A DNA stretch of 64,000 nucleotides, taken from IMG/VR virus record IMGVR_UViG_3300017991_000010, positions 1 through 64,000 of that record; one strand, written 5' to 3'. The stretch comes from a virus. The notes below the pieces were generated by a model. It had not been told where the DNA came from. It saw only the letters and a program-made list of their open reading frames with translations, and made no database searches. Position numbers and translations under genes: made by a program. Numbering within the stretch: position 1 is the stretch's first letter; every line of letters starts with the position of its first letter. Of this stretch, positions 19,347 through 47,262 are shown piece by piece.

Positions 19347-19882
19347 CAGAGCCGACCATCGACGACAACGAGCTGCTCACCCTGATCGGTGACATCGAGG
19401 CTGCAGGCAAGCGCGTGAGGGCCGCAGGCAAAGCCGGAGGCAAGGCGGTCAACCTGCCCATGCTGATCGGCGGCGACCTGATCCCGATCCTGCTCCAGCT
19501 GGCCAAGCAGCTGCACGAGCGCGACGCAGACCACGACGAGCGGCTCGAGGCGATCGAGGACGCCCTTGGCTACGCGCTCGAGGACGACGAGCAGGGCCAC
19601 CCCTTCGCGGAGGTCCCGGCCCTCGCGGCGCGTGAGCTGCTCCAGATGCTCCAGAGCGTGCTCGGCAAGGTAGCGGCGCTCAAGGGGGCTCCCGACGAGC
19701 AGCTCCTGTACGAGGTCGCGTCCGTCAAGGACATGGTCGAGCACGTGCTCACCGGCGGCGAGTCTTCGACTCCCCAGGCGCCGCCCGAAGAGCCCGAGCC
19801 TGAGCCAGAGGCTGCTGAGCCCGAGGAGACCAAGCCAGAGCCCGAAGATCCCCAGACGGAGGACACAGATGGCGGGAGCTGA
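19343..19882 (+). CDS. Helical protein with an acidic Pro/Glu tail
   Basis: ATGA overlap; EPEPEPE tail. Confidence 0.65.
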   Translation: MTEPTIDDNELLTLIGDIEAAGKRVRAAGKAGGKAVNLPMLIGGDLIPILLQLAKQLHERDADHDERLEAIEDALGYALEDDEQGHPFAEVPALAARELLQMLQSVLGKVAALKGAPDEQLLYEVASVKDMVEHVLTGGESSTPQAPPEEPEPEPEAAEPEETKPEPEDPQTEDTDGGS

Positions 19883-21659
19883 GACCCTAGTACCAGGCGG
19901 CGATGTCGAGGAGGTCTTCGGCGAAGGCGCCTTCATCAACGACGATGACGAGCTGGATCAGTCCGAGGTAGACGACGAGCCCAGGCACGAGGCGTCTGCC
20001 TCCGAGAAACTCGACAGGGCCATGGCGTCGGTCGAGTGGGAGACGGGCGAGTACCACGCTGAGATCAACCGCAAGCAGCCTAGGCAGTACAAGGGGCAGT
20101 CGTGCGGCGGGCAGGTGGCGCAAGTCGATCACCCGGTCGACGTCGCGTGGATCGCCAAGTACTTCGGCGGCGGGACCTACTCGGTCTCGATCAAGGGTCC
20201 AGGCAAGACGGCCAAGTCGCGCAACATGACGAACGTGATCCACAAGAGCGTGTTCGGCATCGTGATCGCAGGCCCGCCGAAGCTTACGGAGCCCTGGCGC
20301 GGCCCCGGCGACGAGCCCGAGGAGGCCAAGGACTCCGCGCCTGAGGCCGGCGGTAACGGCGTGACGCCTCACGTCCTCGAGAAGTTCGTCGACAACTCCA
20401 TTGAGGAGGGGCGCTGGGCGCGCCGCAAGCTCATGGAAGGCCCCAAGCAGGAGAGCGACACGCGGACGCTGCTCGAGTTCCAGCACAAGCAGGCCGCGCT
20501 CGCCCAGAAGCAGAACAGCGAGCTGATGCAAGCAATGCTCATGGGAGCCCAGCGAGACGACGGCACGGGCGCGATTATCGAGAACATGCGCTCGGCCATG
20601 GACCAAGCCACGCGGGATCACGCCCGCGAGGTGCGCGAGCAGGCGGAGCGCCACCGCGACGAGGTCAACCGCCTCCAGCAGGAGTACTCACGCGAGCGCG
20701 AACAGCAGCGTGACATCCTGGCCAAGGCGCAAGCCGACGCGCGTGACGAGATGGCCCGGCGCGAGCAGGCCGTGCGCGACAACATCGCGAGCCAGATCGT
20801 GTCGGTCAAGGAGAACGCCGAGGCGCGCGAGAAAGCGCTCCAGGACCTGATCGCCGACCTGCGCGAACGCTTGCGCTCTGCCGAGGGCAAGCTCGAGGCG
20901 GCCGGCCGTGCCGAGCAGGACGCACGCTTGAAGGCCGTGGGGCTCGAGGCGACGCTGCAGAACCGGCCCGAGCCGAAGGAGCCGCTGACGCACTTGCAAG
21001 AGTTCATCACGCTCGGCACGGAGGTGTCGAAGCTCACTGGCAACGCGCCTGCCGAGCCCACCGTGATCGACCAGGTCACGGGCATCCTCGCCTCCCCCGC
21101 CGCCTCGCGCGTGGGAGAGGGCATCGCAGGCCTGCTGGGCAACCTCGGCTCCCGACTGGGTGGCGGCGGTGCGGCGGCCCCTCCGCCCCCGAGCGTGGGC
21201 ATGGAGGCTTGGCAGCAGCACGTAGGCGCGGGACAGCAGGTCCAGCAACTGCCCCAACCGCCTGCAGCCCCGCCCAAGCGCCGCCGTCGGCGCGTGAAAG
21301 TGGCCCCGGGCTCGGAGCCAGAGCAAGAGGTCGAGCCCGAGATCCCCGAGGGCGTCGAGCAAGAGCCCCCGGTCGAGCAGCCCAGCGAGTTCGACCCGAA
21401 CCAGGTGCTACAGGCTATCGAGCAGGCGGCGATGGAGGAGATGGACCACGACGTGTTCATCGGCCAGTTCGTCGAGATGCAAGGCGTAGAGCCGGCCATC
21501 GCCGACGCCCAGCTCATGATGCTGGCGAGCGCGCCCGCCGACCAGGTCATCGCCGAGATCGAAGGCGCGCTAGGGCAGATGTCCTCGGGCGCGAGGATGT
21601 ACATCCGACACGTGCGGGCGCACCTGCGCCAGCGCTTTCAGCTACCGGCGGAGGAGTAA
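19869..21659 (+). CDS. Large coiled-coil protein; possible scaffold or membrane-shaping morphogenesis factor
   Basis: Long R/E/Q/A heptad-like region followed by an amphipathic Gly-rich helix and Pro-rich linker; function is inferred. Confidence 0.6.
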   Translation: MAGAETLVPGGDVEEVFGEGAFINDDDELDQSEVDDEPRHEASASEKLDRAMASVEWETGEYHAEINRKQPRQYKGQSCGGQVAQVDHPVDVAWIAKYFGGGTYSVSIKGPGKTAKSRNMTNVIHKSVFGIVIAGPPKLTEPWRGPGDEPEEAKDSAPEAGGNGVTPHVLEKFVDNSIEEGRWARRKLMEGPKQESDTRTLLEFQHKQAALAQKQNSELMQAMLMGAQRDDGTGAIIENMRSAMDQATRDHAREVREQAERHRDEVNRLQQEYSREREQQRDILAKAQADARDEMARREQAVRDNIASQIVSVKENAEAREKALQDLIADLRERLRSAEGKLEAAGRAEQDARLKAVGLEATLQNRPEPKEPLTHLQEFITLGTEVSKLTGNAPAEPTVIDQVTGILASPAASRVGEGIAGLLGNLGSRLGGGGAAAPPPPSVGMEAWQQHVGAGQQVQQLPQPPAAPPKRRRRRVKVAPGSEPEQEVEPEIPEGVEQEPPVEQPSEFDPNQVLQAIEQAAMEEMDHDVFIGQFVEMQGVEPAIADAQLMMLASAPADQVIAEIEGALGQMSSGARMYIRHVRAHLRQRFQLPAEE

Positions 21660-21660
21660 G

Positions 21661-22297: not shown

Positions 22298-22350
22298 TCT
22301 AATACCATCGGCCAGAGCTTCATAGCTCATCTCGATCTCCTTCTTCCAAC

Positions 22351-22390: not shown

Positions 22391-22407
22391 ACCTCCTTCA
22401 ACCGCCC

Positions 22408-22486: not shown

Positions 22487-23017
22487 ATGAGACTAGCGGC
22501 GGTCCCCTCGTACCATACCCAGCGATATCAGGGCACAACCAATACCGTCCGTCACATGGACCAGCTGGCGCGAGGGCCCAGGGGCGAGCGCTCCATGAAG
22601 CTGCGCATGACCGTCGAGGACATCGTCTCCGGCGTCGAGCCACGTGATCGCGTCAGCCAGCTCGCGGCCATCTACGCTTGGTTCAACGATCACTTCCACT
22701 ACATCAACGACCCCGTCGAGGTCGAGCTGGTCAAGGACCCTGAGCGCCTGCTCGAGGAGATCGAGCGCCGCAACGTGGCCATGGGCGACTGCGACGACGC
22801 AGCCACCTTTCTGTTCGCCGCGCCGCGCACCATTGGCATCCCTACCGAGTTCCTTCGGGTTGGCTTCAAGGCCAACGCGCCGATGGGGGGGCGCCTGACG
22901 CACGTGCTCGTGTGCGCCACCGACCAGTACGGCCGGCGCGTTCTCCTGGACCCAGTGGCGGGCAAGCGCGTGCCCAACATGGTTGAGCGCGTCAAACACG
23001 CCGTGAGGGGGTACTGA
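22487..23017 (+). CDS. Transglutaminase-like (papain-fold) Cys-His-Asp enzyme; candidate virion maturation protease
   Basis: HYINDP..VE, GDCDD (catalytic Cys), THV (His), LDP (Asp). Confidence 0.8.
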   Translation: MRLAAVPSYHTQRYQGTTNTVRHMDQLARGPRGERSMKLRMTVEDIVSGVEPRDRVSQLAAIYAWFNDHFHYINDPVEVELVKDPERLLEEIERRNVAMGDCDDAATFLFAAPRTIGIPTEFLRVGFKANAPMGGRLTHVLVCATDQYGRRVLLDPVAGKRVPNMVERVKHAVRGY

Positions 23018-23928
23018 TGCCCACGCTGCTCCGCACCACTGCTGCGCCCGTCGTCCCCGTCCACAAGCCCGAGAAGGCCGAGGCGCCGCCGGACGTGCGC
23101 CAAGTCCGCAGGCCCAAGGTCACCTCGCGCTTTTCAGTCGCGCCAGTAGTCGCGCCAATCCACAAACTGAAGTCCTCCGCGGCGTTGGCTCCGGTCGCGC
23201 CAGTAACCGCGCCAGTTCAGCGAGCGCCGGCCAAGTCGCCCGACCCGCTGCCGCCGGCGATCACGACGAGGACGGCGCTCATGCGAGCGGCACGCGCCGC
23301 GCGCCCCGCTGCCGCGCCCGACCCGCTCCCGCCTGCGATCAGCGTCCAGGCGCCAGCGCGCAAGATCTTTGCCAGAGAGGAACGAGAGATGGTCCCATTC
23401 ATCAGCCAGACCCCGCCGCGCGAGCAGATGGCCCGTGAGGAGCAGTACGCCACCGAGCGCATGCAGAAGGTCCCGGCCACCCCATTCGTCAGCAAGAAGC
23501 AAGCGGCGGCGGCCAAAGCCGAGCGCGAAACGATGCTCGAGAAGCCGCCGGAGGTCTCCCCGGGCGAGAAGGTCCCGATCGTCGAGGTCGAGAAGGCCGA
23601 CCCGGTCCCCGCTGATGTCACGCCGATCAAACAGCCCGTGTACGTCCCGGCGGCGACGATGACCCCCCGCGAGGTGGCGATGGACGCGGCCCGACAGGCT
23701 GCGGCGCGCGGCGAGGGCCTGTTGCAGCAGCCCGAGGCTCCCGTGCAGCGTCGCGGATTCCAGCTCATGCACCTCTTGCCCTTTGCCCTGGGTGGCCTGG
23801 GCGGCTACCTCGGGCATCGTTACGCCAAGAAGCGAAAAGTGGCGGGCGCGGCCGTAGGGGCCGTTGCCGGTCTTGCGCTCCCAACGATCGTGCTGTACCT
23901 GCTGATGACCATCGGCCACCGGCAGTAG
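23017..23928 (+). CDS. Pro/Ala-rich protein with two C-terminal TM helices
   Basis: PDPLPPAI twice and APV repeats; LLPFALGGLGGYLG-KKRK-VAGAAVGAVAGLALPTIVLYLL. Confidence 0.7.
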   Translation: MPTLLRTTAAPVVPVHKPEKAEAPPDVRQVRRPKVTSRFSVAPVVAPIHKLKSSAALAPVAPVTAPVQRAPAKSPDPLPPAITTRTALMRAARAARPAAAPDPLPPAISVQAPARKIFAREEREMVPFISQTPPREQMAREEQYATERMQKVPATPFVSKKQAAAAKAERETMLEKPPEVSPGEKVPIVEVEKADPVPADVTPIKQPVYVPAATMTPREVAMDAARQAAARGEGLLQQPEAPVQRRGFQLMHLLPFALGGLGGYLGHRYAKKRKVAGAAVGAVAGLALPTIVLYLLMTIGHRQ

Positions 23929-23943
23929 GAAAGGAACAGAGTC

Positions 23944-24171
23944 ATGAAGAAGCAGTTTGAGCTGGGCATCTTCCAGCCCCACCGCAAGAACGGCCCCAAG
24001 TGCGCCATCTGCTACGAGCCCCTCCAGGGCGGCGAAGAGGCAGAGGGCCCGCCCGAGGAGCCCGCCCCCGTCGTGCAGCAGGCTGGCTTCGGCCTGCCGA
24101 GCTGGTCGGTTTGGATCGCCCTGGGCATCGCCGGCTACTTCGGCCTGAAGCACTTCAAGGTGATCAAGTAG
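23944..24171 (+). CDS. Small C-terminally anchored membrane protein
   Basis: CAIC motif; GFGLPSW-TM-KHFKVIK. Confidence 0.7.
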   Translation: MKKQFELGIFQPHRKNGPKCAICYEPLQGGEEAEGPPEEPAPVVQQAGFGLPSWSVWIALGIAGYFGLKHFKVIK

Positions 24172-24172
24172 C

Positions 24173-24400
24173 GTGGCCACTCTCGACCAGATCGCCTCGA
24201 CCCTCGAGCGCATAGACGCACGCCTGGACCGGCTCGACGCGCGCCTCCTGGTGATGGAGTCCAACATCACCATGATCCGTGAGGCGTACGTCAAGTGGGG
24301 CCAGCGCATCGCGTCGCTCGAGGTCGAGGCAGAGAAGAGAGCGGACAGGCTCACGCCCGTCCCCGAGCCGGAGGTGCTAGATGTTCGCGCGATTCGCTAA
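24173..24400 (+). CDS. Short coiled-coil protein
   Basis: LERIDARLDRLDARL heptads. Confidence 0.6.
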   Translation: MATLDQIASTLERIDARLDRLDARLLVMESNITMIREAYVKWGQRIASLEVEAEKRADRLTPVPEPEVLDVRAIR

Positions 24401-26489
24401 CCGCAACGCGCCCTGGAAGCGCTGCTCGCTGTGCGGGCCCTCCTCGGGCATGGGGCTGATCCCGCCGCTCACGAGCACGTCCGACCTGACGCGCATGATC
24501 CGCGACCGGATCGCCATCTACCGCAGCGCCGAGGGCGCCGAGTGGTCGGCGGCGCACGCGTCCTTGCGCGAGGCGGTCCTCGCCGGACGCTCCCGCGTCG
24601 AGGAGGGGCAGCCCCCCGTCGTGCCCGACCAGGAGTGGGCCGCACTCAACGCAGCCCTGCGTGAGGCCTACGCGGCCGGGCGCGAGCAGATGGGCCAGAA
24701 GGGTGAGGCGCCGGGCGTGCAAGCCTACGTCCCGCCCATCCCGGAGCCGCCCGGAGGGGCTGCCGAGGGGGGGAGCGTGACCGGCAGCTCGAGGGCCTGG
24801 ATGCTGGGCGGCGGCCTTGCGCTTGGTGCGCTCGCGCTCGTGTTCCTTGCGACGAGAGGAAAGTGACATGCGACGAGGATGGCAGAAATACCCGCGCCGG
24901 CACGTGTTCAGTACGCCGGGACTGAGCGACCTCCCGGCTGCGCTGGCGACTCTGCAGCAGCAGATGAACGGGCGGGCGCACACCGTGACGACGCGCCTTG
25001 CGGCACTGCGCGCAGGCTCGGGCACAGAGGCCTCGGTCGTGCAGGCGCTCCAGAGCCTCGCGTCCGTGCTAGGTCAGGCCCAGACGGCCGCAGACGGGCC
25101 GGCTCCCGCGGGCGCGACTCCGGCCGAGTGGCAGGGCTTCAAGGACACGCTCCGACGCAAGCGCTACACGTACACGTCGGCCTCGGCCGAGCTGGGACGC
25201 ATCTCGGCAGGGCGCCAGGCGGCTGCGGGCGTGACCCCAGCACAGGCGACCGTGACCTCGCCGACCACGGGCAAGCAGGCGACCGTCACGACTCGGACCT
25301 CTGCCGGCGCCGCGATCCCGCCCGAGATCCAGCAGGCAGCTGCCGAGCACCAGACCGCGGGCGTGTTCGCTGGACTCCAGGGCTTGCCCTCGTGGGCGTT
25401 GCCCGTGGGCGCGGGCCTCGCTGTTGCGGCCGTGGCGTACTTCGCGACGAAGAAGAGGTAGCAAATGGCCACCGCTGCGTCATGCAAGACGAACATTCAG
25501 GCTGGGATTCTATGGCTCGAGGCAAAGCGCAACGAGTTCATGGAACAGGTGAGCGACTTTGCGCGTCGCACTGGCCGCGTGCTCTCCTACGCGACGATCT
25601 TCCAGTCCCAGAGCTTGGCAGCCGGCCTGGTGGACTACTACACGCGGCTTGAGGCAGCCCGCACCCGACTCTACAACGATGCACAGGCATGCGTGCCTCT
25701 GGCTGGGTCGGACCCAGATGTGGCTGGACTCGTGCGCAGCGCCGTCACGGCAATCCGCGAGGCCGAGACCATCATGGAGGCGTACCGGGGCTCGGCGCTC
25801 TACCAGGGGCGCGCGGATCGCGTGTCAGAGGTAGCTCAGTACGCCATTGAGCGCCCGCAGGAAGTGGCAGCAGCCACAACGGCACGCATCGAGCGCGCCC
25901 GGGTGTACCTTGACGCAGCTGGGAGCGTGTACGGGGGCGTGCAGGACATTGTGCGCGGCGAACAGCCGGAGCCGTCAGGCTGGGACCTGCCAACAAGCGC
26001 GCGCATGGCTCTCATGATCGCAGCCGGCGGCGGCCTCGGGCTCGGTGCGATCTACGTGATGAAGCGATTCGGGCTCCTCGGGGCCTAGAGAGGAATACGG
26101 CAATGATACCGAGATGGGCAAGTGCTCACATCCTGTCCAGGCCAACCGAGGAGCTGATCTACACGATGACGCAGGGCGCGTTGGAGATCAACGCTGGGTT
26201 CGATGGCCCGGTCACTTACACAGCTGGGGGCCGATCGGCGGCTGTACCGAAGGTGGAGCTGGAACGCGCTCGCTACCGAGCACTACGGTCACGAGGAGTC
26301 GACGTGGACGCGGCGCTACGCAGCGGGCTGAGGGCGTCGGGCAGTTTTCAGCAAGGGCCGGTTGACCCAGCGATCCTGCGCCAAGCGGGCATTGTCGCAG
26401 GTCCACTGGGCATCCCGACCCGCTACTACCTGTACGGTGGGCTGGGTCTGGCGGGCCTGGCGCTGTTGCACATGATAACGAGGAGATAG
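24381..26489 (+). CDS. Four consecutive C-terminally anchored membrane proteins (24381-24866, 24868-25461, 25465-26088, 26103-26489)
   Basis: Each ends in a Gly-rich TM helix plus basic tail: ...VFLATRGK, GLPSW...YFATKKR, ...IYVMKRFGLLGA, ...LHMITRR. Confidence 0.75.
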
Positions 26490-26491
26490 GT

Positions 26492-35287: not shown

Positions 35288-35293
35288 TCACCG

Positions 35294-36574: not shown

Positions 36575-36582
36575 GAGGTAGC

Positions 36583-37815: not shown

Positions 37816-37819
37816 GATC

Positions 37820-38209: not shown

Positions 38210-38221
38210 CCAACGAGCCCG

Positions 38222-38251
38222 TTGCCAACGCCCCCGTTGGCGTGATATCCT
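38222..38251 (+). promoter_or_regulatory. Leaderless-type promoter overlapped by two CAACG...CGTTG inverted repeats
   Basis: TTGCCA-18 nt-TATCCT-6 nt-ATG(38258); inverted repeats within 38210-38240. Confidence 0.6.
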
Positions 38252-38257
38252 CCCCAC

Positions 38258-38713: not shown

Positions 38714-38714
38714 C

Positions 38715-39119
38715 GTGCAGGACTCGTACAAGGGTGTCAACCAGGTCTCGCAGATAGCGCGCGTGCCCGGCCGCAAGGTCTACCTCTACTACCGCACGGG
38801 CCAGGTCTACCTCGAGTGCGAGCTATACGACAAGCCGCACCAGGACAGCGAGGGGAAGGTCCCCCCAGAGCTGCACATCCAGTGCCCGGCCTGCGGCGGC
38901 GAGTCCATCATCCCAGGCTCCAAGGTCAAGAAGACCATCCACGTCGAGTACCTCAAGCCCCCCCGTCGCCTCGAGATGCCCGACAACGGCGAGGTCGTCC
39001 AGCAGACGGCGCGCGTGACGGTTGACGAGGTCTGCCAGTGCGGCTATCCTGACCCGGCTGGAAAGGGGAAATGTGGATGGCGCTTCAAGCTGACGGACAA
39101 CGTGGTCGAGCGAGTGTAG
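38715..39119 (+). CDS. Zn-ribbon hypothetical protein
   Basis: CPAC and C...CGW motifs. Confidence 0.55.
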   Translation: MQDSYKGVNQVSQIARVPGRKVYLYYRTGQVYLECELYDKPHQDSEGKVPPELHIQCPACGGESIIPGSKVKKTIHVEYLKPPRRLEMPDNGEVVQQTARVTVDEVCQCGYPDPAGKGKCGWRFKLTDNVVERV

Positions 39120-39194: not shown

Positions 39195-40793
39195 ATGATC
39201 TACTTCGTGGCGAGCATCCTAGGCAGGGGCGAGTGGGCGATCAGGGCGAGGGAGTGGGCGCGGGCCCTCTATCCACTCGCCGACTGCAGGCTCTACTCGA
39301 CCGATAGGCAGCCCCTCCAGTCCGCCATCCTGCCGCGCTACAACCCGACCATCACCAAGGAGCACCCCAACGGCAGCTCGCCCTACGACTTCCTGCTCGA
39401 GATGGCGACGCGCGAGCCCAAGGCGGCGCACTGCACGATCCGCTTCGGTCCCATCCAGACCCTGATGAACATCACCGATCGCGCGCCCTACGAGATCGCG
39501 ATCACGGACATCCCCGAGAACCTCACCGGGCGCCAGCGGCGCGTCCTCGAGCGCTTCGACGAGGTCTGGGTTCCCACTCTGGCGATGCAGGAGCTGTACG
39601 GGAGTGGGAACTGCGTGGCGTGGGCCGAGCCACACGCGGGCGGGGGTTTCTGGGGGGCGATCAAGCCGCTCAGCATCGACGACGAGGGGCGCGAGATCAC
39701 GGCCGCATTCGGGACGTGGGAGGAGATCGAGCCGCGTGCCGCGCGCTTCTTTGCTCAGCACCCGCCCGACGGGCCCCACCGCTTCTTGGCCGTGTGCCCC
39801 GACTGTCCGATCACGACCTCGGGGCAGCTCGTCAAGGCCTTTGGCCTGGGCGATGTGCGCCTGCCCTTCTCCCTCAGCCCAGCGCTGCCAACGGACATCG
39901 AGACCCTGATCGCGATCCGCAAGGCGTGCAACAACGTCTCTGAAGTGCCCCGCCCCATGGGCCCCTCCTACTGGGATCGCATGAGCTGCTACGCAACCCC
40001 GCCGGCCTGGAAGGTGCGCAACCGCCTCGCGGAGATCCCCAACGACACCGTCGAGCCCGAGCCTGTGCAGGCGAGCGGCCCGGCCTCGAGCGGCACCGAC
40101 ATCTGCTACGTGATCCCCTTCCGCGACCGGCCTCGGTACATGCTCGAGGACTGCCTGGCTGCGATCCGCGAGGGCGAGCTGCCCAAGGGCGATCGCATTG
40201 TGGTCTCCGACCAGTCGCCCGAATTCGACCCCGAGGTCCTCGCGCTGTGCGCCCAGTTCGATGCGACGCTCGTGCGCGACATGGCGCCTCCGCACCGCTG
40301 GAACGCAGCCAAGTGCCGCAACATTGGCGTCAGGGCGTGCCCCGAGGCGGACTACTATGCGCTCGTGGACGTGGACTGCACCGTGCCGCCCGACTATGGT
40401 GATCGCATCCGCGAAGAGCTGGCCTACGCGCCCGGCACGCCGATCACGCCCATGGTCTCCGACCTCGACGAGGAAGGTGCCCCTGCTGACTCGCGCCCGG
40501 CGCCCGGCTGCACGGTCTACCCGCACCACCTCTACTGGGCGGCGAGCGGCATGGATGAGGGCTTCGAGCGCTGGGGCTCCGAGGACATGGACTTGCTCTG
40601 GCGCCTGCGGCAGGGCGGGATCGAAGCGAGCCTGCTCGAGGACGTGATCCTGGAGCACGCCTACCACCCCCCTCAGGAGGGCAAGGCCGAGAGCGGCGAG
40701 GCGAACCTCGAGCGCATCAACAGGCGCCAGCGCGGCGAGCTAGGCGCAGCCAACCCCGACGGATGGGGCGAGGGCGGGGAGGTGGTGGCGTGA
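39195..40793 (+). CDS. Two-domain glycosyltransferase (degenerate GT-B-like N-terminus plus GT2/GT7C C-terminus)
   Basis: FDEVWVPT; YVIPFRDR, VVSDQS, RNIGV, VDVD (DxD), GMDEGFERWGSEDMD. Confidence 0.85.
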   Translation: MIYFVASILGRGEWAIRAREWARALYPLADCRLYSTDRQPLQSAILPRYNPTITKEHPNGSSPYDFLLEMATREPKAAHCTIRFGPIQTLMNITDRAPYEIAITDIPENLTGRQRRVLERFDEVWVPTLAMQELYGSGNCVAWAEPHAGGGFWGAIKPLSIDDEGREITAAFGTWEEIEPRAARFFAQHPPDGPHRFLAVCPDCPITTSGQLVKAFGLGDVRLPFSLSPALPTDIETLIAIRKACNNVSEVPRPMGPSYWDRMSCYATPPAWKVRNRLAEIPNDTVEPEPVQASGPASSGTDICYVIPFRDRPRYMLEDCLAAIREGELPKGDRIVVSDQSPEFDPEVLALCAQFDATLVRDMAPPHRWNAAKCRNIGVRACPEADYYALVDVDCTVPPDYGDRIREELAYAPGTPITPMVSDLDEEGAPADSRPAPGCTVYPHHLYWAASGMDEGFERWGSEDMDLLWRLRQGGIEASLLEDVILEHAYHPPQEGKAESGEANLERINRRQRGELGAANPDGWGEGGEVVA

Positions 40794-41848
40794 TCACCTT
40801 CTACGGCCACTTCAGCGGCTACTCGAGCTACCCGACGGTCTGCCGCGCGATCGCCAACTACTTGCACTCGATCGGCACGAAAGACTTGCAGCTGTGCGAC
40901 CTGCGGCCCCAGGGCGCGTACGACGGCGTCCCCGGCATCTCGCGCGTGCCTTCGAGCACGTGGCGTGCGGTGCAGGAGGGGCGGGCCGACCGATGGAACA
41001 AGCGCCCAGGCACTGCGCTCGTCTTCGGCTTCCCCGAGTGGGTGCGGCGCGTCGCCCAGCACGAGCGCATGGTAGGCTACCACGTGTGCGACGTGGACCG
41101 AATCCCCCGGCACTGGGCGCACATCATAAACACCGAGGACCTCGTCATCACGCCCTCGCAGTGGTGCCACGGCGTGTTCCGCAACTGCGGCGTGACGACC
41201 CCGATCGCGATTGTGCACCACGGCGTCGATGTGGCCTTCGGGGCGGTCAAGCGTCCGAAGCTCCCGCGCGAGCCCCTGACCTTCCTGCACACCTGCTCGG
41301 CGGGAGAGCCCGATCGCAAGGGCACCCTGCAGCTCGTCGAGGCGTGGGAGCGGCTGGCGTCGATGGGCGAGATCGACGCGAAGCTCACGATCCTGTCGTC
41401 CTTCCCCGAGGCGCACGCTCCCCTGGCCAAGAAGAGCTTAGGCATCAAGGTCATCAGCGGCAAGGTGGCCCGGACGCCTGCTGAGATGGCCCAGTGCGTT
41501 GCGGGCTTCCACGGCCTCGTACAGCCGTCCCGCGCCGAGGGCTTCGGCATGCTGCCCCTCGAGTGCGCCGCTGCAGGCCTCCCAACGCTCGCTACGGACT
41601 GCACGGGCCACGCAGAGCATGACAGGTACTCGACCTCCTGGAGCATTCCCACGGGCCCCTTGGCCCCCTGCGGAGGCGCCCAAGCACCTAGCCTTGACCT
41701 TGGCCACGTTGCCAACGCCCTCTTGTACATGATCGAGAACTACGATACACTCCAAGACGAGGCCAATGCCCGGCGCTCAACCATCATGGAGACGTGGGCG
41801 TGGCACAAGGTCCTCGAAAACCTGCCGGAATTGTTGACACCCTCCTGA
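40790..41848 (+). CDS. GT4-family glycosyltransferase
   Basis: ITPSQW, VHHGVD, RKG, PSRAEGFGMLPLECAAAGLP (EX7E). Confidence 0.9.
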   Translation: MITFYGHFSGYSSYPTVCRAIANYLHSIGTKDLQLCDLRPQGAYDGVPGISRVPSSTWRAVQEGRADRWNKRPGTALVFGFPEWVRRVAQHERMVGYHVCDVDRIPRHWAHIINTEDLVITPSQWCHGVFRNCGVTTPIAIVHHGVDVAFGAVKRPKLPREPLTFLHTCSAGEPDRKGTLQLVEAWERLASMGEIDAKLTILSSFPEAHAPLAKKSLGIKVISGKVARTPAEMAQCVAGFHGLVQPSRAEGFGMLPLECAAAGLPTLATDCTGHAEHDRYSTSWSIPTGPLAPCGGAQAPSLDLGHVANALLYMIENYDTLQDEANARRSTIMETWAWHKVLENLPELLTPS

Positions 41849-41898: not shown

Positions 41899-42453
41899 AT
41901 GCCCGGTGAGCAGGGATCGCATCCTATCCAGCAACTGGCGCCGATCGTAGCGCAGGAAACGTCCTACTCCGTCTCGGGCGTGGGCGCGAACGAGACCCGT
42001 ACGGTACTGTGTGACGCTACAGGCCGGCTGGTCGTCGTAGCGCCCGCGGCAGGCATCGGCGTCGACATCCAGTTCGTCGATGGCAACCCCGTCCAGAGCG
42101 ATGGCGCCGGCACCATGAACGTCGCAGTCCAGGGCGTCGAGGGCGACGACACGACCCTGACCCCAGTCCCCGCAGCGCGCTTCTCGCCCGTCGACAGCGA
42201 GGGCGGCTCGCAGGCCGTGACGAACGTGAGCGCGCGCATCGGTCCCTTGACGGTCAACAAGGCCATCCAGTTCTTCTGCGACGAGATTTGTTGGTGCGCC
42301 AAGGGGAACAACACCGTGGTAGCGACCAACAACGACACGCCCATCCAGGCTGGCGTGGTCTACGAGTACGTGCCCACGGCGGGGAACGACTATCTCGCGT
42401 TCATCCACGACGCGAACGACGGCGACCTCAAATACGGTCGGGCGGAGGCGTAG
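41899..42453 (+). CDS. Beta-rich putative virion surface or adaptor protein
   Basis: V/T/N/D-rich beta pattern; immediately upstream of the beta-helix genes. Confidence 0.45.
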   Translation: MPGEQGSHPIQQLAPIVAQETSYSVSGVGANETRTVLCDATGRLVVVAPAAGIGVDIQFVDGNPVQSDGAGTMNVAVQGVEGDDTTLTPVPAARFSPVDSEGGSQAVTNVSARIGPLTVNKAIQFFCDEICWCAKGNNTVVATNNDTPIQAGVVYEYVPTAGNDYLAFIHDANDGDLKYGRAEA

Positions 42454-42456
42454 ATC

Positions 42457-44097
42457 ATGGGCTCAACGCTCTGGGGCACGACGCTACCGAGGGGCGGTGG
42501 TGCTGGTGGTGCGCTTTCACTGCCCGACATCCAGCAGATCCTCATCGTGGACAAGACCGCAGGCACTTACGCGCCCGACGGCACGCAGCAGCGTCCCTTC
42601 AACTCGATCGGTGCGGCCGTGACTGCCGCAGTAGCGCTTGCGCCCACGACGACCAATCGCATTCTGATCTACATCCACCCGGGCATCTACGAAGAAGCCG
42701 TAGCCATCACCAACGACTTCATCTACCTCCAGGGCGAGGATCGGGACACGACGATCATCACGAGCGACACGGTGACCCTGGGGATCACGGCCGACGAGGT
42801 CTCGGTTTCGGACCTGACGATCCACAGCGAGGATGCGTTCTACGCGATCGGCCTCAATGGCTCCTTCAACGAGTTCGTCCGGTTCTTCAACTGCCTGATC
42901 GATGTTGGTGACCCTGACGGGTACGTGTTCATCGAGGGCGGCGCCTCTGCGTGGTTCGAGCGCTGCGATTGGATCGTGGACGATGGTGCAGGAGGCGACC
43001 CTGCGCTTGCAACAGACGATGACGCGTCCAACCGCGTGGTCCTCAACGACTGCACCATCTCAGGTGGCTATATCGACTTCGACGGCGGCGCGCTCACAGT
43101 CCGGGACGGCTCGATCTCGTCCGACTCCGCCAACGGCTGTGTGCGCCTGACTGACGCCAACGTAGGCGTAGTCACGCTCGACAGCGTACACTTCATTGGC
43201 TTGGCTGCTGGGGCGCGCAAGATCTACGTGACCGCGGCGCCCACTCAGGGAATCGTGCGCAACTGCCTCTTTGACTCGGGCGCGAACAACCCCGACATCG
43301 ACTCGACCGTAGCACTCACCGGCTGGATCATTGAGGGCAACGTGATGGAGGCAGGGATCGACTCCAATGTCTCGCACGTGGCCCCGACGCGCTACGTGGG
43401 TGCGGCAGGGGACGTCGACTTTTATGCAGCCATCCAGGACGCTCTCGACGCGTGCACCTTCGACGACATCACCGTGCACCTGCTGCAGGACTTCACGATC
43501 GCCGCAGCGCTGACTCCGCCTTCAAGGCCCGTGATCATCGATGGCCATGGGTTCACGATAACGCGCGCGGCAGGCTCTCCGGCCATAACGATCGGCTCCA
43601 GTGACGACCTCGAGACACGGGACGTGAACATCGTTGGCAGCATCGACTTTGCTCCCGCGCAAGGAGGCGCTACGCTGCTCCTGGGCCCCGGCACGGTTCT
43701 TACGGGCATGCTTGACGTGCAGAGCGGTGACGCTACAGCCACAGTTGACCTGGACGGAGCTACCGTGAACGGCGACGCGAGCGACAACTACTGCATCCGT
43801 CTCGCCGACGCAGACCCGGTCGTGACGATCAAGCGCTCCTACCTGAAGGGCAATAGCGGCAACGTGGCCATCTACTGGGATACGGTCACGAACGACGACC
43901 TACAGCTCGCGTGGTCTACGGTGATCCACGGGAGCGTGGGCGCCAACAACCCTTTCGGGAGGTCGGGTGCGCAGACGCCAGACTACAAGTCGCACCACGA
44001 CGCGTACAACAGCGATCCCGAAGCAGGGGCGATCTGGACCAACCTGGTGGCTGCTGGGCAGCGGTTTGACAGCCTAGACGTGAACACGGACTACTAG
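42457..44097 (+). CDS. Pectin-lyase-like beta-helix protein, putative spike/receptor-binding protein 1
   Basis: DGTQQRPFNSIGAAV...IYIHPGIYEE...YLQGEDRDTTII; repeated F.NC.I rungs. Confidence 0.75.
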   Translation: MGSTLWGTTLPRGGGAGGALSLPDIQQILIVDKTAGTYAPDGTQQRPFNSIGAAVTAAVALAPTTTNRILIYIHPGIYEEAVAITNDFIYLQGEDRDTTIITSDTVTLGITADEVSVSDLTIHSEDAFYAIGLNGSFNEFVRFFNCLIDVGDPDGYVFIEGGASAWFERCDWIVDDGAGGDPALATDDDASNRVVLNDCTISGGYIDFDGGALTVRDGSISSDSANGCVRLTDANVGVVTLDSVHFIGLAAGARKIYVTAAPTQGIVRNCLFDSGANNPDIDSTVALTGWIIEGNVMEAGIDSNVSHVAPTRYVGAAGDVDFYAAIQDALDACTFDDITVHLLQDFTIAAALTPPSRPVIIDGHGFTITRAAGSPAITIGSSDDLETRDVNIVGSIDFAPAQGGATLLLGPGTVLTGMLDVQSGDATATVDLDGATVNGDASDNYCIRLADADPVVTIKRSYLKGNSGNVAIYWDTVTNDDLQLAWSTVIHGSVGANNPFGRSGAQTPDYKSHHDAYNSDPEAGAIWTNLVAAGQRFDSLDVNTDY

Positions 44098-44098
44098 C

Positions 44099-45700
44099 AT
44101 GCCTGGAATGCACATCTCGACACTCCCCCGCGGCGCAGTCGGCCTTGGGCGCCTCTCCCTGCCCGACATCACAAACGTTCTCTTCGTGGACAAGTCCTCC
44201 GAGGTGGGCTCGCAGGACGGCACGCAGCAGAACCCCTACCACACGATCCAGGCGGCCATCACGGCAGCCAACGCGCTCGCCGCTGTGGCTACGCCGTACC
44301 TGGTCTACGTGTATCCAGGCATCTACGACGAGGCGATCACGCTCTCGACCGACTACGTGTACCTCGCTGGCGCGAACCGGGACACGACGATCGTAGAGAA
44401 CTCGGGGGCGAACGTCGTCACGATCACCTCTGACCTGACGAGCATCAACGACCTCACGATCAGGGCAAGCAGCACGCGCCGCACGATCAGCATGGGCGTG
44501 GCTGCCAGCAACTACGTCCCGGTCTTCAACTGCATTCTGGCTGGCGCGACAGCGAACAACTACGTCGACGCTTCCCTTGGCGCGATGCTGCGGTTTGTTG
44601 ACTGCGCCTTCGTCAGTGACGTAGACGGCGTGGTCCTCCTGACTCTTACGGCTACTACTGACGTGCTGGTCGAGAACTGCGCCATCACAGGAGGTCTGCA
44701 CCACAGGCAAGGGAGCTTGCTCGTACAGGACTCCAGCATCCTTGCAGAGGCAGTCGACGGCATCCTGATGAACACTGCCGCGGCTTCTTTGTCCGTGCGA
44801 AATAGCCACATTGTGAGCACAAACAACTCGGCGATCATGGTGAACTTCGCGCCGGTGTCGATCGTGCTTCAGAACAACCTGATGTCAGCCAACGCGGCAT
44901 CCTACGCGATCGGAGCGGGGGTAGCGGTCACGGGTGCCGTAGTCGAGGACAACATCCTGACCACAGGGCTCGGCATCGACCCGGACGTCTCCCATGTGGC
45001 GCCCCACCGGAACGTAGGATCTAACGGGATGCGGGACTGGTACGCAACCACACAGAACGCGCTGGACTCCTGCACCTTCGACGGGATCACGGTGCACCTC
45101 CTAAAAGATGAGGCTACTGCTGCGCTGCTTAGGCCGCCTGACTTCTGTGTGATCGTCGACGGACACAACCACACGATCTCGCGCGCTGGGGGCGTGCTCA
45201 CCATACTGTCGGGAGAGTGCATAATAACCAAGCGTTTGGGTTTGGTCGGTAAGATCGTCGTAGCTGGCACCAACGGCCAGTTGTATCTGACAGATAGGAG
45301 TTCAGTTCTTGGTGGGATTCAGTTTGCTGTGACGTCAGCAGGCGCGATGCTAATACAAGACACCGAAATAGTGGGCTCTGCAGTGTGGAACTACCCCGTG
45401 CAGATTGACACTAACCCAGGCTTCTCCATCCTGATCAACCGCTCGAGGCTCGAAGGGGTATCTGGGTCCCCTGCAGTCTACTGGACGAGCGCGAACGACG
45501 ACCTATCGATCAAGTACAGCACACTGTGGCACGGCTCTGGCGCGGGAAACAACCCCTTTGGGCGTAGCGCTGCTCAGACGCCCGACTACAAGAGCTACCA
45601 GAGCGCCTACAACTCAGACCCCGAGGCTGGAGGCATCTGGACAAATCTGGTTGCGGCCGGGCAGCGCTGTGACTCGCTCGACGTCAACACGAACTACTGA
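44099..45700 (+). CDS. Pectin-lyase-like beta-helix protein, putative spike/receptor-binding protein 2 (paralog)
   Basis: DGTQQNPYHTIQAAI...VYPGIYDE; near-identical C-terminus to 42457-44097. Confidence 0.75.
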   Translation: MPGMHISTLPRGAVGLGRLSLPDITNVLFVDKSSEVGSQDGTQQNPYHTIQAAITAANALAAVATPYLVYVYPGIYDEAITLSTDYVYLAGANRDTTIVENSGANVVTITSDLTSINDLTIRASSTRRTISMGVAASNYVPVFNCILAGATANNYVDASLGAMLRFVDCAFVSDVDGVVLLTLTATTDVLVENCAITGGLHHRQGSLLVQDSSILAEAVDGILMNTAAASLSVRNSHIVSTNNSAIMVNFAPVSIVLQNNLMSANAASYAIGAGVAVTGAVVEDNILTTGLGIDPDVSHVAPHRNVGSNGMRDWYATTQNALDSCTFDGITVHLLKDEATAALLRPPDFCVIVDGHNHTISRAGGVLTILSGECIITKRLGLVGKIVVAGTNGQLYLTDRSSVLGGIQFAVTSAGAMLIQDTEIVGSAVWNYPVQIDTNPGFSILINRSRLEGVSGSPAVYWTSANDDLSIKYSTLWHGSGAGNNPFGRSAAQTPDYKSYQSAYNSDPEAGGIWTNLVAAGQRCDSLDVNTNY

Positions 45701-45710
45701 GAGGACTCTG

Positions 45711-46355
45711 ATGGCCAACGCTTTCTCCGATTCGTACACCGCGATGATCGATCAGCTGCGCGACATCGAGGAGGCGCTGCGCGGCGTGCAGGAGGTCTGG
45801 GACGACCTAGTAGATGAGCAGGTCCCGCACCTGGCGGCGCTGGACATGGACGGAGACCCCAGCCCCTTCGACGCCAAGCTCGCTGAGATGGGCACGTGGA
45901 CGAACGGAGTAGAGCTACGCCCTGCGGATCTTGCCGCGTCTGCGCGTTCGCGCTTTGCTTCCGAGGCGCTAGGCATTCGCGCAGCGTCGATCGAGGTGAT
46001 GCGAAAGCGCGCTCGCAGCATGGCAGAACGTCTAGCGCGGACGGCGCGGGAGCAAGCAAGAGGCGTCAGCCTTGTGACGCGCGCTCATGCGGACGCAGTA
46101 AAGGACCCGCACGATCTTGCTTGGGTGGCCAAGCTCCTGCTAGGCCTCCACGCGCTTGACCAAACGGGCGTGCCGAAGGGCGTCGAACCTACTGCGGCAG
46201 CCTTGATCGACGACGGGATGAAGCTGTGCGTGACGCGCGGGGCTACCTTGGCTCGCGTGGTCCGCACTCTGCTCCGCCAGTACCCGGATCACGTGCAGTC
46301 CCACGAGGTGCTGAAGGCCGCGCGCTACGCAGCGGGGTTGCAGGATGGTAGCTAA
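45711..46355 (+). CDS. Helical hypothetical protein
   Basis: RBS GAGGA; overlaps the next gene. Confidence 0.55.
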   Translation: MANAFSDSYTAMIDQLRDIEEALRGVQEVWDDLVDEQVPHLAALDMDGDPSPFDAKLAEMGTWTNGVELRPADLAASARSRFASEALGIRAASIEVMRKRARSMAERLARTAREQARGVSLVTRAHADAVKDPHDLAWVAKLLLGLHALDQTGVPKGVEPTAAALIDDGMKLCVTRGATLARVVRTLLRQYPDHVQSHEVLKAARYAAGLQDGS

Positions 46356-47262
46356 GCTCAACCACCACATCGGAGCGCATGCGGGAGATGCAGCAGCCAA
46401 CGCGTTCATCGCGGCAGCTGGTTGGACTGTCGAGAGCGGCTGGATGTACGACGACACGTCTTCAGGAAAGCTCAAGACCTGGGACGACCAGCAAAACGCT
46501 TGGCTCTTCTTCGGCGGCGCGTCGGGCGAGTCTGGACAAGAAACGCTTTGGGAGTGGAACGGCAACGACATCTCGCAGTTCGATAGTCCGCTGTCATACG
46601 GCGGAGGAAACGGCACACTCTCGGTGGCGACCTATCCTGCAGGTCTAGACGTGCCGCGCCGCAACCGCTTGGTGTACACCCATGACGGAAGCCCTGCAGT
46701 GCGCGCCGGCCGCCTGTACTGGATCAACGACCTCCCCACGCTGCCTGATGCCTACGTAGTGGAAGCCACGCTGGGCCCGCGCAACGAGCTAACCCTCGGC
46801 GCCAACACGGCCCCAGGTGTAGCTGTCCTGGGGCAGGATACGGCGCACTTCTTGCTGTTTGGCCGAGGGGGTGCCGGCTTCCAGGACGACCTCAACCTGG
46901 AGATCACCAACGGGGTGACATACGACGTTGGCGCACGGTGGACTACCATGCTGACCGGCGCGATGGATCGCACGGACGAAGGGTACCGAGTTCGGATGCT
47001 TGTCGATCTCCGAGACCCCACGGGCTCGACAGACCCTGGCATCAGCCTGTACCTGCTTCGCCCTGGCATGGAGGCCGTAACACGCGCCAGCTCGGTCGGC
47101 TGGACTGGATCTGGCGGTTCTCCGCCCCCAGACCCCTCGTCGTCCTGGGATGCGGGTTGGCAGTCCGGCGGCACATGCAAGAACGTAGGGCTGAACTTCC
47201 TGCATGACGCCACCGCCGCCGGCTCTGCGTACATCACAGACTTCCGTGTTCTAACCGTCTAG
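46345..47262 (+). CDS. Beta-rich (lectin-like?) putative surface protein
   Basis: W/G/T-rich beta pattern ending YITDFRV. Confidence 0.45.
   Translation: MVAKLNHHIGAHAGDAAANAFIAAAGWTVESGWMYDDTSSGKLKTWDDQQNAWLFFGGASGESGQETLWEWNGNDISQFDSPLSYGGGNGTLSVATYPAGLDVPRRNRLVYTHDGSPAVRAGRLYWINDLPTLPDAYVVEATLGPRNELTLGANTAPGVAVLGQDTAHFLLFGRGGAGFQDDLNLEITNGVTYDVGARWTTMLTGAMDRTDEGYRVRMLVDLRDPTGSTDPGISLYLLRPGMEAVTRASSVGWTGSGGSPPPDPSSSWDAGWQSGGTCKNVGLNFLHDATAAGSAYITDFRVLTV

What the first reader, a model, noticed from the sequence alone, without database searches (positions are those of the whole stretch)
19869..47262. Candidate new lineage of tailless, membrane-containing bacterial virus with no visible packaging ATPase
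Seen: a ~27-kb co-oriented block with about 15 membrane-anchored proteins, a very basic protein, three adjacent ~200-aa beta-rich proteins, a Cys-His-Asp enzyme and beta-helix proteins. I recognised no terminase, portal, HK97 capsid, tail or A32/FtsK-HerA ATPase anywhere in 64 kb; the only P-loop NTPases seen are the two helicases. Established: Halopanivirales use single jelly-roll capsids, an inner membrane and an ATPase, while archaeal Portogloboviridae use single jelly-roll capsids, a membrane and a nucleoprotein core without a packaging ATPase. Inference: this is a large bacterial virus built on the nucleoprotein-plus-membrane plan.
Basis: partly seen in the sequence, partly recalled or inferred. 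Interest (0 to 1): 0.92.

Follow-up and report, generated by a model that had tools for sequence, protein, structure and literature searches.

The report
Large tailless jelly-roll-capsid virus lineage
This 94-kb circular viral genome from marine sediment, and its 82-182 kb relatives, lack every hallmark gene of tailed phages. They carry two adjacent jelly-roll capsid-type genes behind a giant membrane-anchored, protamine-like protein, so they probably form an undescribed group of very large tailless, membrane-containing viruses.

Summary

- **Genome:** the window is the first 64 kb of a 94,028-bp IMG/VR virus contig. It closes on a 123-bp terminal repeat.
- **Missing hallmarks:** the other 30 kb is a replication and recombination module. 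Terminase, portal, HK97 capsid, FtsK and A32 HMMs find nothing in this genome or in four relatives, three of them DTR-closed (82-112 kb).
- **Capsid candidates:** AlphaFold models of g061 (31993-32604) and g062 (32746-33384) are jelly-rolls. Their best structural matches are capsid proteins of membrane-containing icosahedral viruses: SPV1, HHIV-2, HCIV-1, SH1, P23-77 and PBCV-1.
- **Conserved core:** every relative has the order giant basic protein (net +47 to +197, then a hydrophobic helix) → g061 → g062, and four complete genomes share a Cys-His-Asp enzyme with an invariant triad.
- **Breadth:** the g061 family has 391 diverged representatives and no Pfam name.

Caveats:
- Jelly-rolls also occur in tailed-phage accessory proteins.
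- The membrane, the tailless shape, ATPase-free packaging and a bacterial host remain inferred.
- The host is unidentified.

The scan noted this only on this same genome, not on other DNA.

The parts
19869..21659 (+). g040, a 596-aa acidic protein with weak coiled-coil-type hits, conserved in the lineage. Candidate scaffold or size-determining protein (inference).
   Evidence: It has no Pfam or PHROG family apart from a weak LAMB1 helical hit. Homologs occur in G002 and G004 and in loci L005, L011 and L012.
22487..23017 (+). g042, a transglutaminase-like (papain-type) Cys-His-Asp enzyme. Candidate maturation protease (inference).
   Evidence: It matches Transglut_core at E 8.4e-6. It is present in all four complete genomes, and the DCDD...SHV...DPVA residues are invariant.
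23017..28553 (+). Cluster of about 12 small genes (g043-g055), most with a single, mostly C-terminal hydrophobic helix. Candidate virion membrane proteins (inference).
   Evidence: The helices come from hydropathy scans. None of these genes has a Pfam or PHROG hit. g055 is conserved in L004, L008 and L012.
28553..29041 (+). g056, a 162-aa acidic protein conserved in both sub-lineages. Function unknown.
   Evidence: It forms a cluster of 8 members across the related loci. The atlas search gave no usable hit.
30301..31917 (+). g060, a tripartite protein: a protamine-like N-domain (aa 1-205, net +94), hydrophobic helices (about aa 210-300) and a neutral to acidic C-domain. Candidate membrane-tethered DNA-condensing core protein (inference).
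   Evidence: The sequence and charge profile show the three parts. The same architecture sits directly upstream of the g061 homolog in all 9 relatives examined (471-863 aa, net +47 to +197).
31993..32604 (+). g061, a single jelly-roll protein and the best-conserved gene of the lineage. Candidate major capsid protein.
32746..33384 (+). g062, with an N-terminal long helix (aa 6-39) followed by a jelly-roll (aa 51-212). Candidate second capsid protein.
33381..34019 (+). g063, a 212-aa beta-rich protein. Its fold was not established here. Candidate vertex or minor capsid protein (inference).
   Evidence: Homologs appear only in close relatives. The atlas's own low-confidence model gives beta-sandwich rows at TM about 0.5. 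There is no profile similarity to g061 or g062.
34076..37497 (+). g064-g067, proteins of 198-426 aa with hydrophobic helices. g065 and g066 share a C-terminal anchor segment.
   Evidence: The helices come from hydropathy. g065 aa 135-195 and g066 aa 368-422 are 47% identical. The genes have no family hits and are syntenic in L003 and L004.
37501..39119 (+). g068 (DUF7222), g069, and the lineage-conserved g070 and g071.
   Evidence: g068 matches DUF7222 at E 2.7e-20. g070 and g071 have homologs in G001 and G004.
39195..41848 (+). g072 and g073, glycosyltransferases of families GT2-like and GT4.
   Evidence: They have Pfam and PHROG hits. g073 is conserved in G001 and G004.
41899..47262 (+). g074, the paralogous g075 and g076 (546 and 533 aa, likely beta-helix), g077 and ORF 46345-47262. 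Candidate vertex spikes or receptor-binding proteins (inference). This stretch has lower G+C (0.61-0.63).
   Evidence: The Pectinesterase hits are sub-threshold (E 3.9e-5 and 1.1e-3) and there is one weak PHROG tail-protein hit. g075 and g076 are 43% identical.
54624..55748 (-). g091, a tyrosine integrase. It lies outside the finding but belongs to the same element.
   Evidence: It matches phrog_1 at E 2.8e-36. An excisionase-type HTH_17 protein is also present in the scanned set.

Best explanation
The block is the virion (morphogenesis) module of a complete, circularly closing 94-kb dsDNA virus of a prokaryote, probably a bacterium. The virus belongs to an undescribed lineage with genomes of 82-182 kb.

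Shown here:
- The lineage has no detectable terminase, portal, HK97 capsid, or A32/FtsK-type ATPase.
- Its only shared core is this module.
- Two adjacent core genes, g061 and g062, fold as jelly-rolls most like the capsid proteins of membrane-containing icosahedral viruses.
- A giant basic protein with a hydrophobic helix always precedes them.
- A Cys-His-Asp enzyme is conserved with an intact triad.

Inferred:
- g061 and g062 build an icosahedral shell of vertical single jelly-rolls over an internal membrane. That membrane is studded with the many small, mostly C-terminally anchored membrane proteins of the block.
- The protamine-like N-domain of g060 condenses the genome against the inner face of that membrane. 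A second basic protein outside the window (contig 65602-67398) may help.
- g042 processes virion precursors.
- The beta-helix paralogs g075 and g076 are vertex spikes, possibly glycosylated by the neighbouring transferases.
- The genome is enclosed by co-assembly or condensation, as proposed for Portogloboviridae, rather than pumped in by a dedicated packaging NTPase.
For: 1. **Complete genome.** The contig has a 123-bp DTR and CheckV rates it 100% complete. Relatives G001, G002 and G004 also have DTRs.

2. **Hallmark HMMs.** Terminase_6N, TerL_ATPase, Phage_capsid, Phage_portal, FtsK_SpoIIIE and Pox_A32 gave no hit on G000 at E<=0.1, searched in six frames, and none over cut-off in any of the five records. 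The single sub-threshold match is an 11-bit FtsK_SpoIIIE hit (E 0.0106) in G001. The control genomes did give hits. The P23-77 packaging ATPase is detected by Pox_A32, AAA_22 and Zot, and it has no phmmer hit in the four genomes.

3. **Protein-by-protein scans.** Every predicted protein of 60 aa or more except g112 and g113 (split by the window end) was scanned against Pfam and/or PHROGs. No head, tail or packaging family turned up.

4. **Walker A motifs.** Six-frame motif scans find only replication-module proteins plus g158. The closest complete relative, G001, has no unassigned canonical P-loop.

6. **g062 fold.** The model is a jelly-roll. Two programs put membrane-virus capsid proteins on top: PBCV-1, EhV-201, Orf D13, SPV1, HCIV-1, HHIV-2, faustovirus, ASFV p72 and PRD1 P3 by VIA-align, and HHIV-2, SPV1, HCIV-1 and SH1 at probability 0.96-1.00 by Foldseek.

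7. **Synteny.** The order basic protein → g061 → g062 is conserved in every relative examined, including those with only 28-32% g061 identity.

8. **Shared core.** The four complete genomes share almost only this module, as expected of a virus hallmark module.

9. **Loop insertions.** Long g061 homologs are the same barrel with large insertions at two loops. One insertion is a whole Ice-binding-like domain. This is the behaviour of outward-facing capsid tower loops.

10. **Virus and bacterial-host signs:**
   - An M23 peptidase with an N-terminal anchor next to a 2-TM protein.
   - A Tad3 anti-Thoeris gene.
   - An integrase.
   - SD motifs before 70% of starts against 13% at random positions.
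Against: - Against predicted viral structures, g061 matches small jelly-roll proteins of uncultured tailed phages as well as it matches SPV1 VP4, which ranks 47th. The fold alone therefore does not prove a capsid role.
- There is no sequence or profile similarity to any known capsid family.
- g063 and a penton protein are unresolved.
- Several large unknowns were never modelled and could hide a divergent fold: g040, g066, g067, g032, g158, g160 and g165.
- g158 (409 aa, GCSAIGKT at aa 170) and the AAA protein g149 could in principle act in packaging.
- The membrane is inferred from hydropathy only.
- The host is unknown. MAG bins span Gemmatimonadota, Ignavibacteriaceae, Kiloniellales, Pirellulales and Methanomicrobiales. 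Only the original MAG among 401 genomes of its phylum holds the gene.
Confidence: 0.6

Rival explanations
1. It is a highly divergent tailed phage (Caudoviricetes). Its terminase, portal and HK97 capsid have drifted beyond HMM detection, and g061 and g062 are jelly-roll decoration, cement or fibre proteins.
For: Jelly-roll accessory proteins are common in tailed phages. The BFVD search puts small proteins of uncultured Caudovirales at the top, and PDB hits include tail fibres and cement proteins. The replication genes are of tailed-phage type. g075 has a weak 'tail protein' PHROG hit. Several large proteins remain unmodelled.
Against: - TerL is usually the most detectable phage gene, yet five records, four of them DTR-closed, show nothing at E<=0.1 in six frames.
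- No unassigned protein of 400 aa or more has a Walker A placed as in TerL.
- No tape-measure, sheath, tube or baseplate family was found.
- The most conserved genes of the lineage are the two jelly-rolls and the basic protein, not a head-tail set.
Confidence: 0.13
2. It is a virus of another, non-icosahedral architecture, for example an enveloped or pleomorphic particle with a nucleoprotein core. In that case the jelly-roll proteins are envelope-associated or spike components rather than an icosahedral shell.
For: The block has a huge basic protein with a membrane helix and many membrane proteins. Glycosyltransferases are abundant. No packaging ATPase was found. The fold matches are only moderate.
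Against: Two different adjacent jelly-roll proteins give their best matches to shell proteins of icosahedral membrane viruses, by two aligners. Tower-like loop insertions occur in homologs. No similarity to any pleomorphic or spindle virus family was seen in PHROGs or Pfam.
Confidence: 0.17
3. It is a non-viral mobile element, such as a large plasmid or integrative element. Its jelly-roll and membrane proteins would then serve a cell-surface or secretion function.
For: The element has an integrase and a circular genome. No classical virion gene was recognised by sequence.
Against: - No conjugation, partition or plasmid replication family was seen.
- Lysis-type M23 peptidase and holin-like genes, a Tad3 anti-defence gene and a phage-type replication module are present.
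- IMG/VR and CheckV class it as viral.
- The basic protein plus jelly-roll core is conserved while everything else varies.
Confidence: 0.07

Closest known systems
Portogloboviridae (Sulfolobus polyhedral virus 1, SPV1)
   Same: - SPV1 also has two single jelly-roll capsid proteins, an inner lipid layer, a nucleoprotein core made with a dedicated protein (VP1), a circular genome, many membrane-protein genes and a glycosyltransferase (PMC8459092).
- That profile lists no packaging ATPase among SPV1's nine ORFs with an assigned function.
   Different: - SPV1 has a 20-kb genome, infects hyperthermophilic Sulfolobales, encodes no polymerases and is non-lytic (PMC8459092).
- Here the genomes are 82-182 kb with their own PolA-based replication module, a lysis-type M23 peptidase and an integrase, and they come from marine sediment and seawater.
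- No sequence similarity was found.
- The basic protein here is giant (471-863 aa) and carries a membrane helix.
Halopanivirales / kingdom Helvetiavirae, realm Singelaviria (HHIV-2, HCIV-1, SH1, Thermus phage P23-77)
   Same: - These viruses have two adjacent genes for vertical single jelly-roll capsid proteins and an internal membrane with many small membrane proteins.
- Some members infect bacteria and some are temperate.
   Different: - Their conserved core is ATPase plus two MCPs, as seen in P23-77 ORF13-VP16-VP17. Here no such ATPase exists, and a basic protein occupies the upstream position.
- The Pfam VP16-like and VP17 models do not match and hhalign finds nothing.
- Their genomes are 16-31 kb (PMC12642351, PMC12643093), against 82-182 kb here.
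Adenovirus-type core organisation: basic core proteins processed by a virion cysteine protease. This is a functional analogy drawn from general knowledge, not tested here.
   Same: Both have strongly basic DNA-condensing proteins encoded with the capsid genes and a conserved cysteine protease in the morphogenesis module (g060 and g042).
   Different: Adenoviruses have a double jelly-roll hexon, a packaging ATPase (IVa2), no membrane and eukaryotic hosts. No homology was detected, and cleavage of g060 by g042 is conjecture.

Membership tests
Halopanivirales (Helvetiavirae, Singelaviria) | Two adjacent genes encoding single jelly-roll major capsid proteins | tested here: met
   The g061 and g062 models are jelly-rolls, and HHIV-2, HCIV-1, SH1 and P23-77 MCPs are among their best hits. 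The vertical orientation in a shell cannot be tested with these tools.
Halopanivirales (Helvetiavirae, Singelaviria) | A32/FtsK-HerA-type packaging ATPase encoded next to the capsid genes | tested here: not met
   Pox_A32 and FtsK_SpoIIIE HMMs gave no hit over cut-off in any of the 5 records; the only match at E<=0.1 is an 11-bit FtsK_SpoIIIE hit (E 0.0106) in G001. No P-loop lies in or near the module. As a positive control, the P23-77 ATPase is detected by these HMMs and has no phmmer hit in the four genomes.
Halopanivirales (Helvetiavirae, Singelaviria) | Sequence membership in the MCP families (Pfam VP16-like, VP17_central_barrel) | tested here: not met
   There is no hit at E<=1 in six frames of the 5 records. 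hhalign probability is below 1%.
Halopanivirales (Helvetiavirae, Singelaviria) | Internal lipid membrane | not testable with these tools
   The only evidence is 10-15 predicted membrane-helix proteins in the module.
Portogloboviridae | Single jelly-roll capsid proteins resembling VP4 and VP10 | tested here: met
   [not shown]
Portogloboviridae | Nucleoprotein core formed by a dedicated DNA-binding structural protein, with no packaging ATPase | tested here: inconclusive
   A conserved giant basic protein lies upstream of the capsid genes, and no ATPase was detected. Presence in virions and DNA binding are untested.
Portogloboviridae | Genome of about 20 kb without its own replication genes; hyperthermophilic Sulfolobales host | tested here: not met
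   The genome is 94 kb with PolA, helicases, primase and SbcCD-like genes. It comes from sediment and seawater metagenomes and carries an M23 peptidase and Tad3.
Caudoviricetes (tailed phages) | HK97-fold capsid, portal and large terminase | tested here: not met
   No hit for any of the four HMMs (Terminase_6N, TerL_ATPase, Phage_capsid, Phage_portal) in the 5 records. Pfam and PHROG scans of the proteins found none. These are sequence-level tests only; the folds of several unknowns were not modelled.
Double jelly-roll viruses (Bamfordvirae, e.g. Tectiviridae, Corticoviridae) | Double jelly-roll MCP plus A32-type ATPase | tested here: inconclusive
   The g061 and g062 models are single barrels. 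Double-length homologs are one barrel with loop insertions, not tandem barrels. No ATPase was found. A DJR protein among the unmodelled unknowns is not excluded.

The most novel reading that the evidence does not exclude
These contigs represent a new high-rank group (family to realm level) of bacterial viruses. They would be by far the largest tailless prokaryotic viruses, at 82-182 kb. They would build a single jelly-roll shell over a membrane and enclose their DNA without any packaging motor. Instead they would use a giant membrane-anchored protamine-like protein, matured by a virion cysteine protease. That is a bacterial counterpart of the SPV1 and adenovirus core strategies, and a possible link between Singelaviria and Portogloboviridae.
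Probability: 0.4. Interest if true: 0.92.

Novelty: new variant of a known kind. Interest (0 to 1): 0.8.

Why it matters
- **Genome size.** From general knowledge, known tailless membrane-containing prokaryotic dsDNA viruses have genomes of roughly 10-45 kb. Large prokaryotic virus genomes are thought to be the preserve of tailed phages with terminase motors.
- **Packaging.** A lineage of 82-182 kb genomes with jelly-roll capsid genes and no packaging ATPase would break that size limit. It would also raise the question of how about 100 kb of DNA is enclosed without a motor.
- **Evolution.** It would add a deep branch relevant to the origin of vertical jelly-roll capsids, for which the realm Singelaviria was split off only in 2025 (PMC12714852).
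- **Virome surveys.** The g061 family has 391 diverged representatives and no Pfam name, so it gives a ready marker for finding these viruses. Marker-based virus classifiers tuned to terminase and HK97 genes would mis-handle them.

Tried and rejected
- Complex prediction of g061 with g062 returned 'no answer'. It is not evidence either way.
- hhalign between the g061, g062 and g063 families, and against P23-77 VP16 and VP17, found nothing. The 'divergent paralogs' idea is therefore unsupported, though it is not excluded at fold level.
- phmmer against PDB sequences found nothing for g158, g160, g066 and g040.
- The ESM atlas gave no usable hit for g056. For g063 it gave only TM about 0.5 beta-sandwich rows from a low-confidence model.
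- Foldseek against BFVD for g061 was unspecific.
- Foldseek against PDB gave no hit below E 1e-3 for either model.
- A Pfam scan of 69 distant g061-family members found no bridging family. The only real hit is an inserted Ice_binding domain in one member.
- Host search: only the original MAG among 401 genomes of its phylum holds the gene. The six MAG hits are binned in five unrelated groups, so no host was assigned and no integrated copy was seen.
- No RNA holder was listed among sequencing runs.
- A 207-aa ORF in G001 with a Walker A motif (AGSCVGKT) proved to be a junk frame, and the short GAPGKGKT ORF at window 5226 appears spurious (frame check only). Both were dropped.
- The literature searches found no described group of this kind. 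The library is incomplete, so prior description cannot be excluded.

Full report
**What the window is.** The 64-kb window is the first two thirds of a single 94,028-bp contig, the only contig of the 'genome'. Its two ends repeat exactly over 123 bp. IMG/VR holds it as a virus record with direct terminal repeats, and CheckV rates it 100% complete. G+C is 66% with no tRNA. I called 165 genes from GC3 and frame statistics. Shine-Dalgarno-like motifs precede 116 of the 165 starts, against 13% at random positions, so the host is a prokaryote.

**The observation.** The stretch 19869-47262 is a co-oriented + strand array.
- It contains a 538-aa protein, g060 (30301-31917), of net charge +85. Its first 205 residues carry +94. 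Hydrophobic helices and a neutral to acidic C-domain follow.
- It contains three adjacent genes of about 200 aa: g061, g062 and g063.
- It contains a transglutaminase-like Cys-His-Asp protein, g042.
- It contains two 43%-identical large paralogs, g075 and g076, with sub-threshold pectinesterase-type hits.
- Ten to fifteen proteins have a single, mostly C-terminal hydrophobic helix, depending on the threshold.
- Apart from glycosyltransferases, DUF7222 and the g042 hit, nothing in the block matches Pfam or PHROGs.

**Refutation test 1: hallmark genes outside the window.**
- The remaining 30 kb is a replication and recombination module. It holds a UDG-exonuclease-PolA fusion, an SbcC-like ATPase, an Mre11-like phosphoesterase, an AAA protein, a Sak4-like ATPase and a PD-(D/E)XK nuclease.
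- It also holds a second small virion- and lysis-like cluster, described below.
- Within the window there are also a helicase, a primase-helicase, a tyrosine integrase and a topoisomerase.
- Every predicted protein of 60 aa or more, except g112 and g113 (split by the window end), was scanned against Pfam and/or PHROGs. No head, tail, portal or terminase family appeared.
- Six-frame HMM searches were run for Terminase_6N, TerL_ATPase, HK97 Phage_capsid, Phage_portal, FtsK_SpoIIIE and Pox_A32. They gave no hit on G000 at E<=0.1 and none over cut-off on four relatives' full records; the only match is an 11-bit FtsK_SpoIIIE hit (E 0.0106) in G001. Three of those relatives are also DTR-closed, at 82, 104 and 112 kb. 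Control genomes did give hits.
- As a positive control, the packaging ATPase of Thermus phage P23-77 is picked up by Pox_A32, AAA_22, Zot and AAA_10. It has no phmmer hit in the four genomes.
- Canonical Walker A motifs in six frames occur only in replication-module proteins and in one unknown, g158 (409 aa). g158 is not conserved in relatives. The nearest complete relative, G001, has no unassigned canonical P-loop.

**Refutation test 2: jelly-roll folds.**
- g061 has 43 close metagenomic homologs at 40-82% identity. Its AlphaFold2 model has pLDDT 77 and pTM 0.76 and is a beta-barrel.
- g062 was aligned with 15 homologs taken partly by synteny. Its model is a long N-terminal helix plus a jelly-roll, with pLDDT 75.5.
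- Foldseek independently lists HHIV-2, SPV1, HCIV-1 and SH1 first, at probability 0.96-1.00.
The atlas's own weak model gives only beta-sandwich rows.

**Cautions on the fold evidence.**
- No Foldseek hit is below E 1e-3.
- Against predicted viral structures, g061 resembles small jelly-roll proteins of uncultured tailed phages as much as it resembles SPV1 VP4.
- The fold by itself is therefore not proof of a capsid role.

**Comparative evidence.**
- Relatives were found in IMG/VR (contigs of 61-182 kb) and in MAGs.
- In all of them, including those with only 28-32% g061 identity, the gene directly upstream of the g061 homolog encodes a huge basic protein of 471-863 aa and net +47 to +197. It has the same layout: a long basic N-domain, a hydrophobic helix, then a neutral or acidic C-domain. 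The g062 homolog follows downstream.
- I fetched three complete relatives. The four genomes share almost nothing except g040, g042, g056, the basic protein, g061, g062, g070, g071 and a glycosyltransferase. Their replication modules differ. That is the signature of a virus hallmark module.
- The catalytic Cys, His and Asp of g042 are invariant.
- A profile search over 1.84 billion cluster representatives finds 391 g061-family members at E<=1e-3, of which 99 are at E<=1e-10. None of 69 distant members scanned has a Pfam family.
- The double-length members are the same single barrel with large insertions at two loops. One insertion is a complete Ice-binding-like domain. This is how outward-facing tower loops of capsid proteins behave.
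- Profile comparisons find no relationship between the g061, g062 and g063 families, nor to P23-77 VP16 and VP17. The Pfam VP16-like and VP17 models do not match.

**Most likely mechanism.**

Shown:
- A complete circular viral genome.
- A lineage-wide absence of detectable tailed-phage and A32/FtsK hallmark genes.
- Two adjacent jelly-roll proteins.
- A conserved basic, membrane-helix protein.
- A conserved Cys-His-Asp enzyme.

Inferred:
- g061 and g062 form an icosahedral shell over an internal membrane. That membrane holds the many small anchored proteins of the block.
- The basic domain of g060 condenses DNA on the inner face of the membrane.
- g042 matures virion precursors.
- g075 and g076 are spikes.
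- Egress uses the M23 peptidase and the adjacent 2-TM protein.
- DNA is enclosed by condensation and co-assembly rather than by a motor, as described for the SPV1 nucleoprotein core (PMC8459092).

I put 0.6 on this reading as a whole. The rivals are a very divergent tailed phage (0.13), a non-icosahedral enveloped or pleomorphic architecture (0.17) and a non-viral element (0.07).

**Comparison with known groups.**
- The thing works most like Portogloboviridae: single jelly-roll capsid proteins, an inner lipid layer, a nucleoprotein core and no packaging ATPase among the assigned ORFs. It fails membership on genome size, replication genes, host and sequence.
- It resembles Halopanivirales in the paired jelly-roll capsid genes. 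It fails their defining ATPase-MCP-MCP core and their sequence families.
- I therefore file it as a new variant of the known kind 'membrane-containing icosahedral viruses with single jelly-roll capsids', not as a member of either group.
- Literature searches found no description of such large members.

**Host and ecology.**
- The DNA recurs in sediment and seawater metagenomes from several independent studies.
- A bacterial host is suggested by the peptidoglycan-type M23 peptidase, which is conserved in G001 and G002, and by a Tad3 anti-Thoeris gene.
- MAG bins disagree, and a search of 401 genomes of one candidate phylum found only the original, evidently composite MAG.
- The host is unknown, and no integrated copy was seen despite the integrase.

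Noticed in passing
L001:5977-6585 (contig 69977-70585, + strand): g124 is a 202-aa paralog of the capsid candidate g061 (30% identity over the full length). It is encoded 37 kb away, next to the lysis-type genes. G001 has no separate copy.
   Followed up: partly
L001:1602-3398 (contig 65602-67398, + strand): This is a second giant basic protein, 598 aa with net +102 when read from the likely true start. It has internal repeats and a C-terminal HExxH-type motif (ILHELGHAL). The upstream 190 codons of the long ORF look like a wrong-frame artefact, with GC1 0.86. A homolog exists in G001.
   Followed up: partly
L001:4953-5911 (contig 68953-69911, - strand): This looks like a lysis cassette: a 102-aa protein with two hydrophobic helices (g122) followed by an M23 peptidase with an N-terminal anchor (g123, Peptidase_M23 E 1.7e-27). 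The peptidase is conserved in G001 and G002.
   Followed up: partly
L002:2568-2936 (contig 82568-82936, - strand): A homolog of the Type I Thoeris inhibitor Tad3 (Pfam E 4.6e-40). This is an anti-defence gene aimed at a bacterial immune system.
   Followed up: partly
window 47385-52475: A glycan-modification operon lies just downstream of the block. It holds three GT2-type glycosyltransferases, a methyltransferase and an NAD-dependent epimerase/dehydratase.
   Followed up: partly
window 42000-47000: G+C drops to 0.61-0.63 over the beta-helix paralogs g075 and g076 and the following ORFs, against 0.66-0.69 elsewhere. This fits exchangeable receptor-binding genes.
   Followed up: no
P0069 (482 aa, g061-family member from the representative library): A complete Ice-binding-like beta-solenoid domain (PF11999, E 1.4e-36) is inserted in the loop that is disordered in the g061 model (profile positions 134-139).
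   Followed up: partly
L002:8757-9986 (contig 88757-89986, - strand): g158 is a 409-aa acidic protein with 20 cysteines and a canonical Walker A (GCSAIGKT at aa 170). It has no Pfam, PHROG or PDB relative and is not conserved in relatives. It is the only unassigned P-loop protein of the genome.
   Followed up: partly
window 34676-36574: g065 and g066 share a 47%-identical C-terminal segment that includes their hydrophobic helix. This looks like a common membrane-anchor module on different ectodomains.
   Followed up: no
window 14104-15601 (- strand) and 16190-19882 (+ strand): This is a run of very acidic proteins (for example g032, 310 aa, net -50) and the paralog pair g037/g038, all without any family hit, just upstream of the block.
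   Followed up: no
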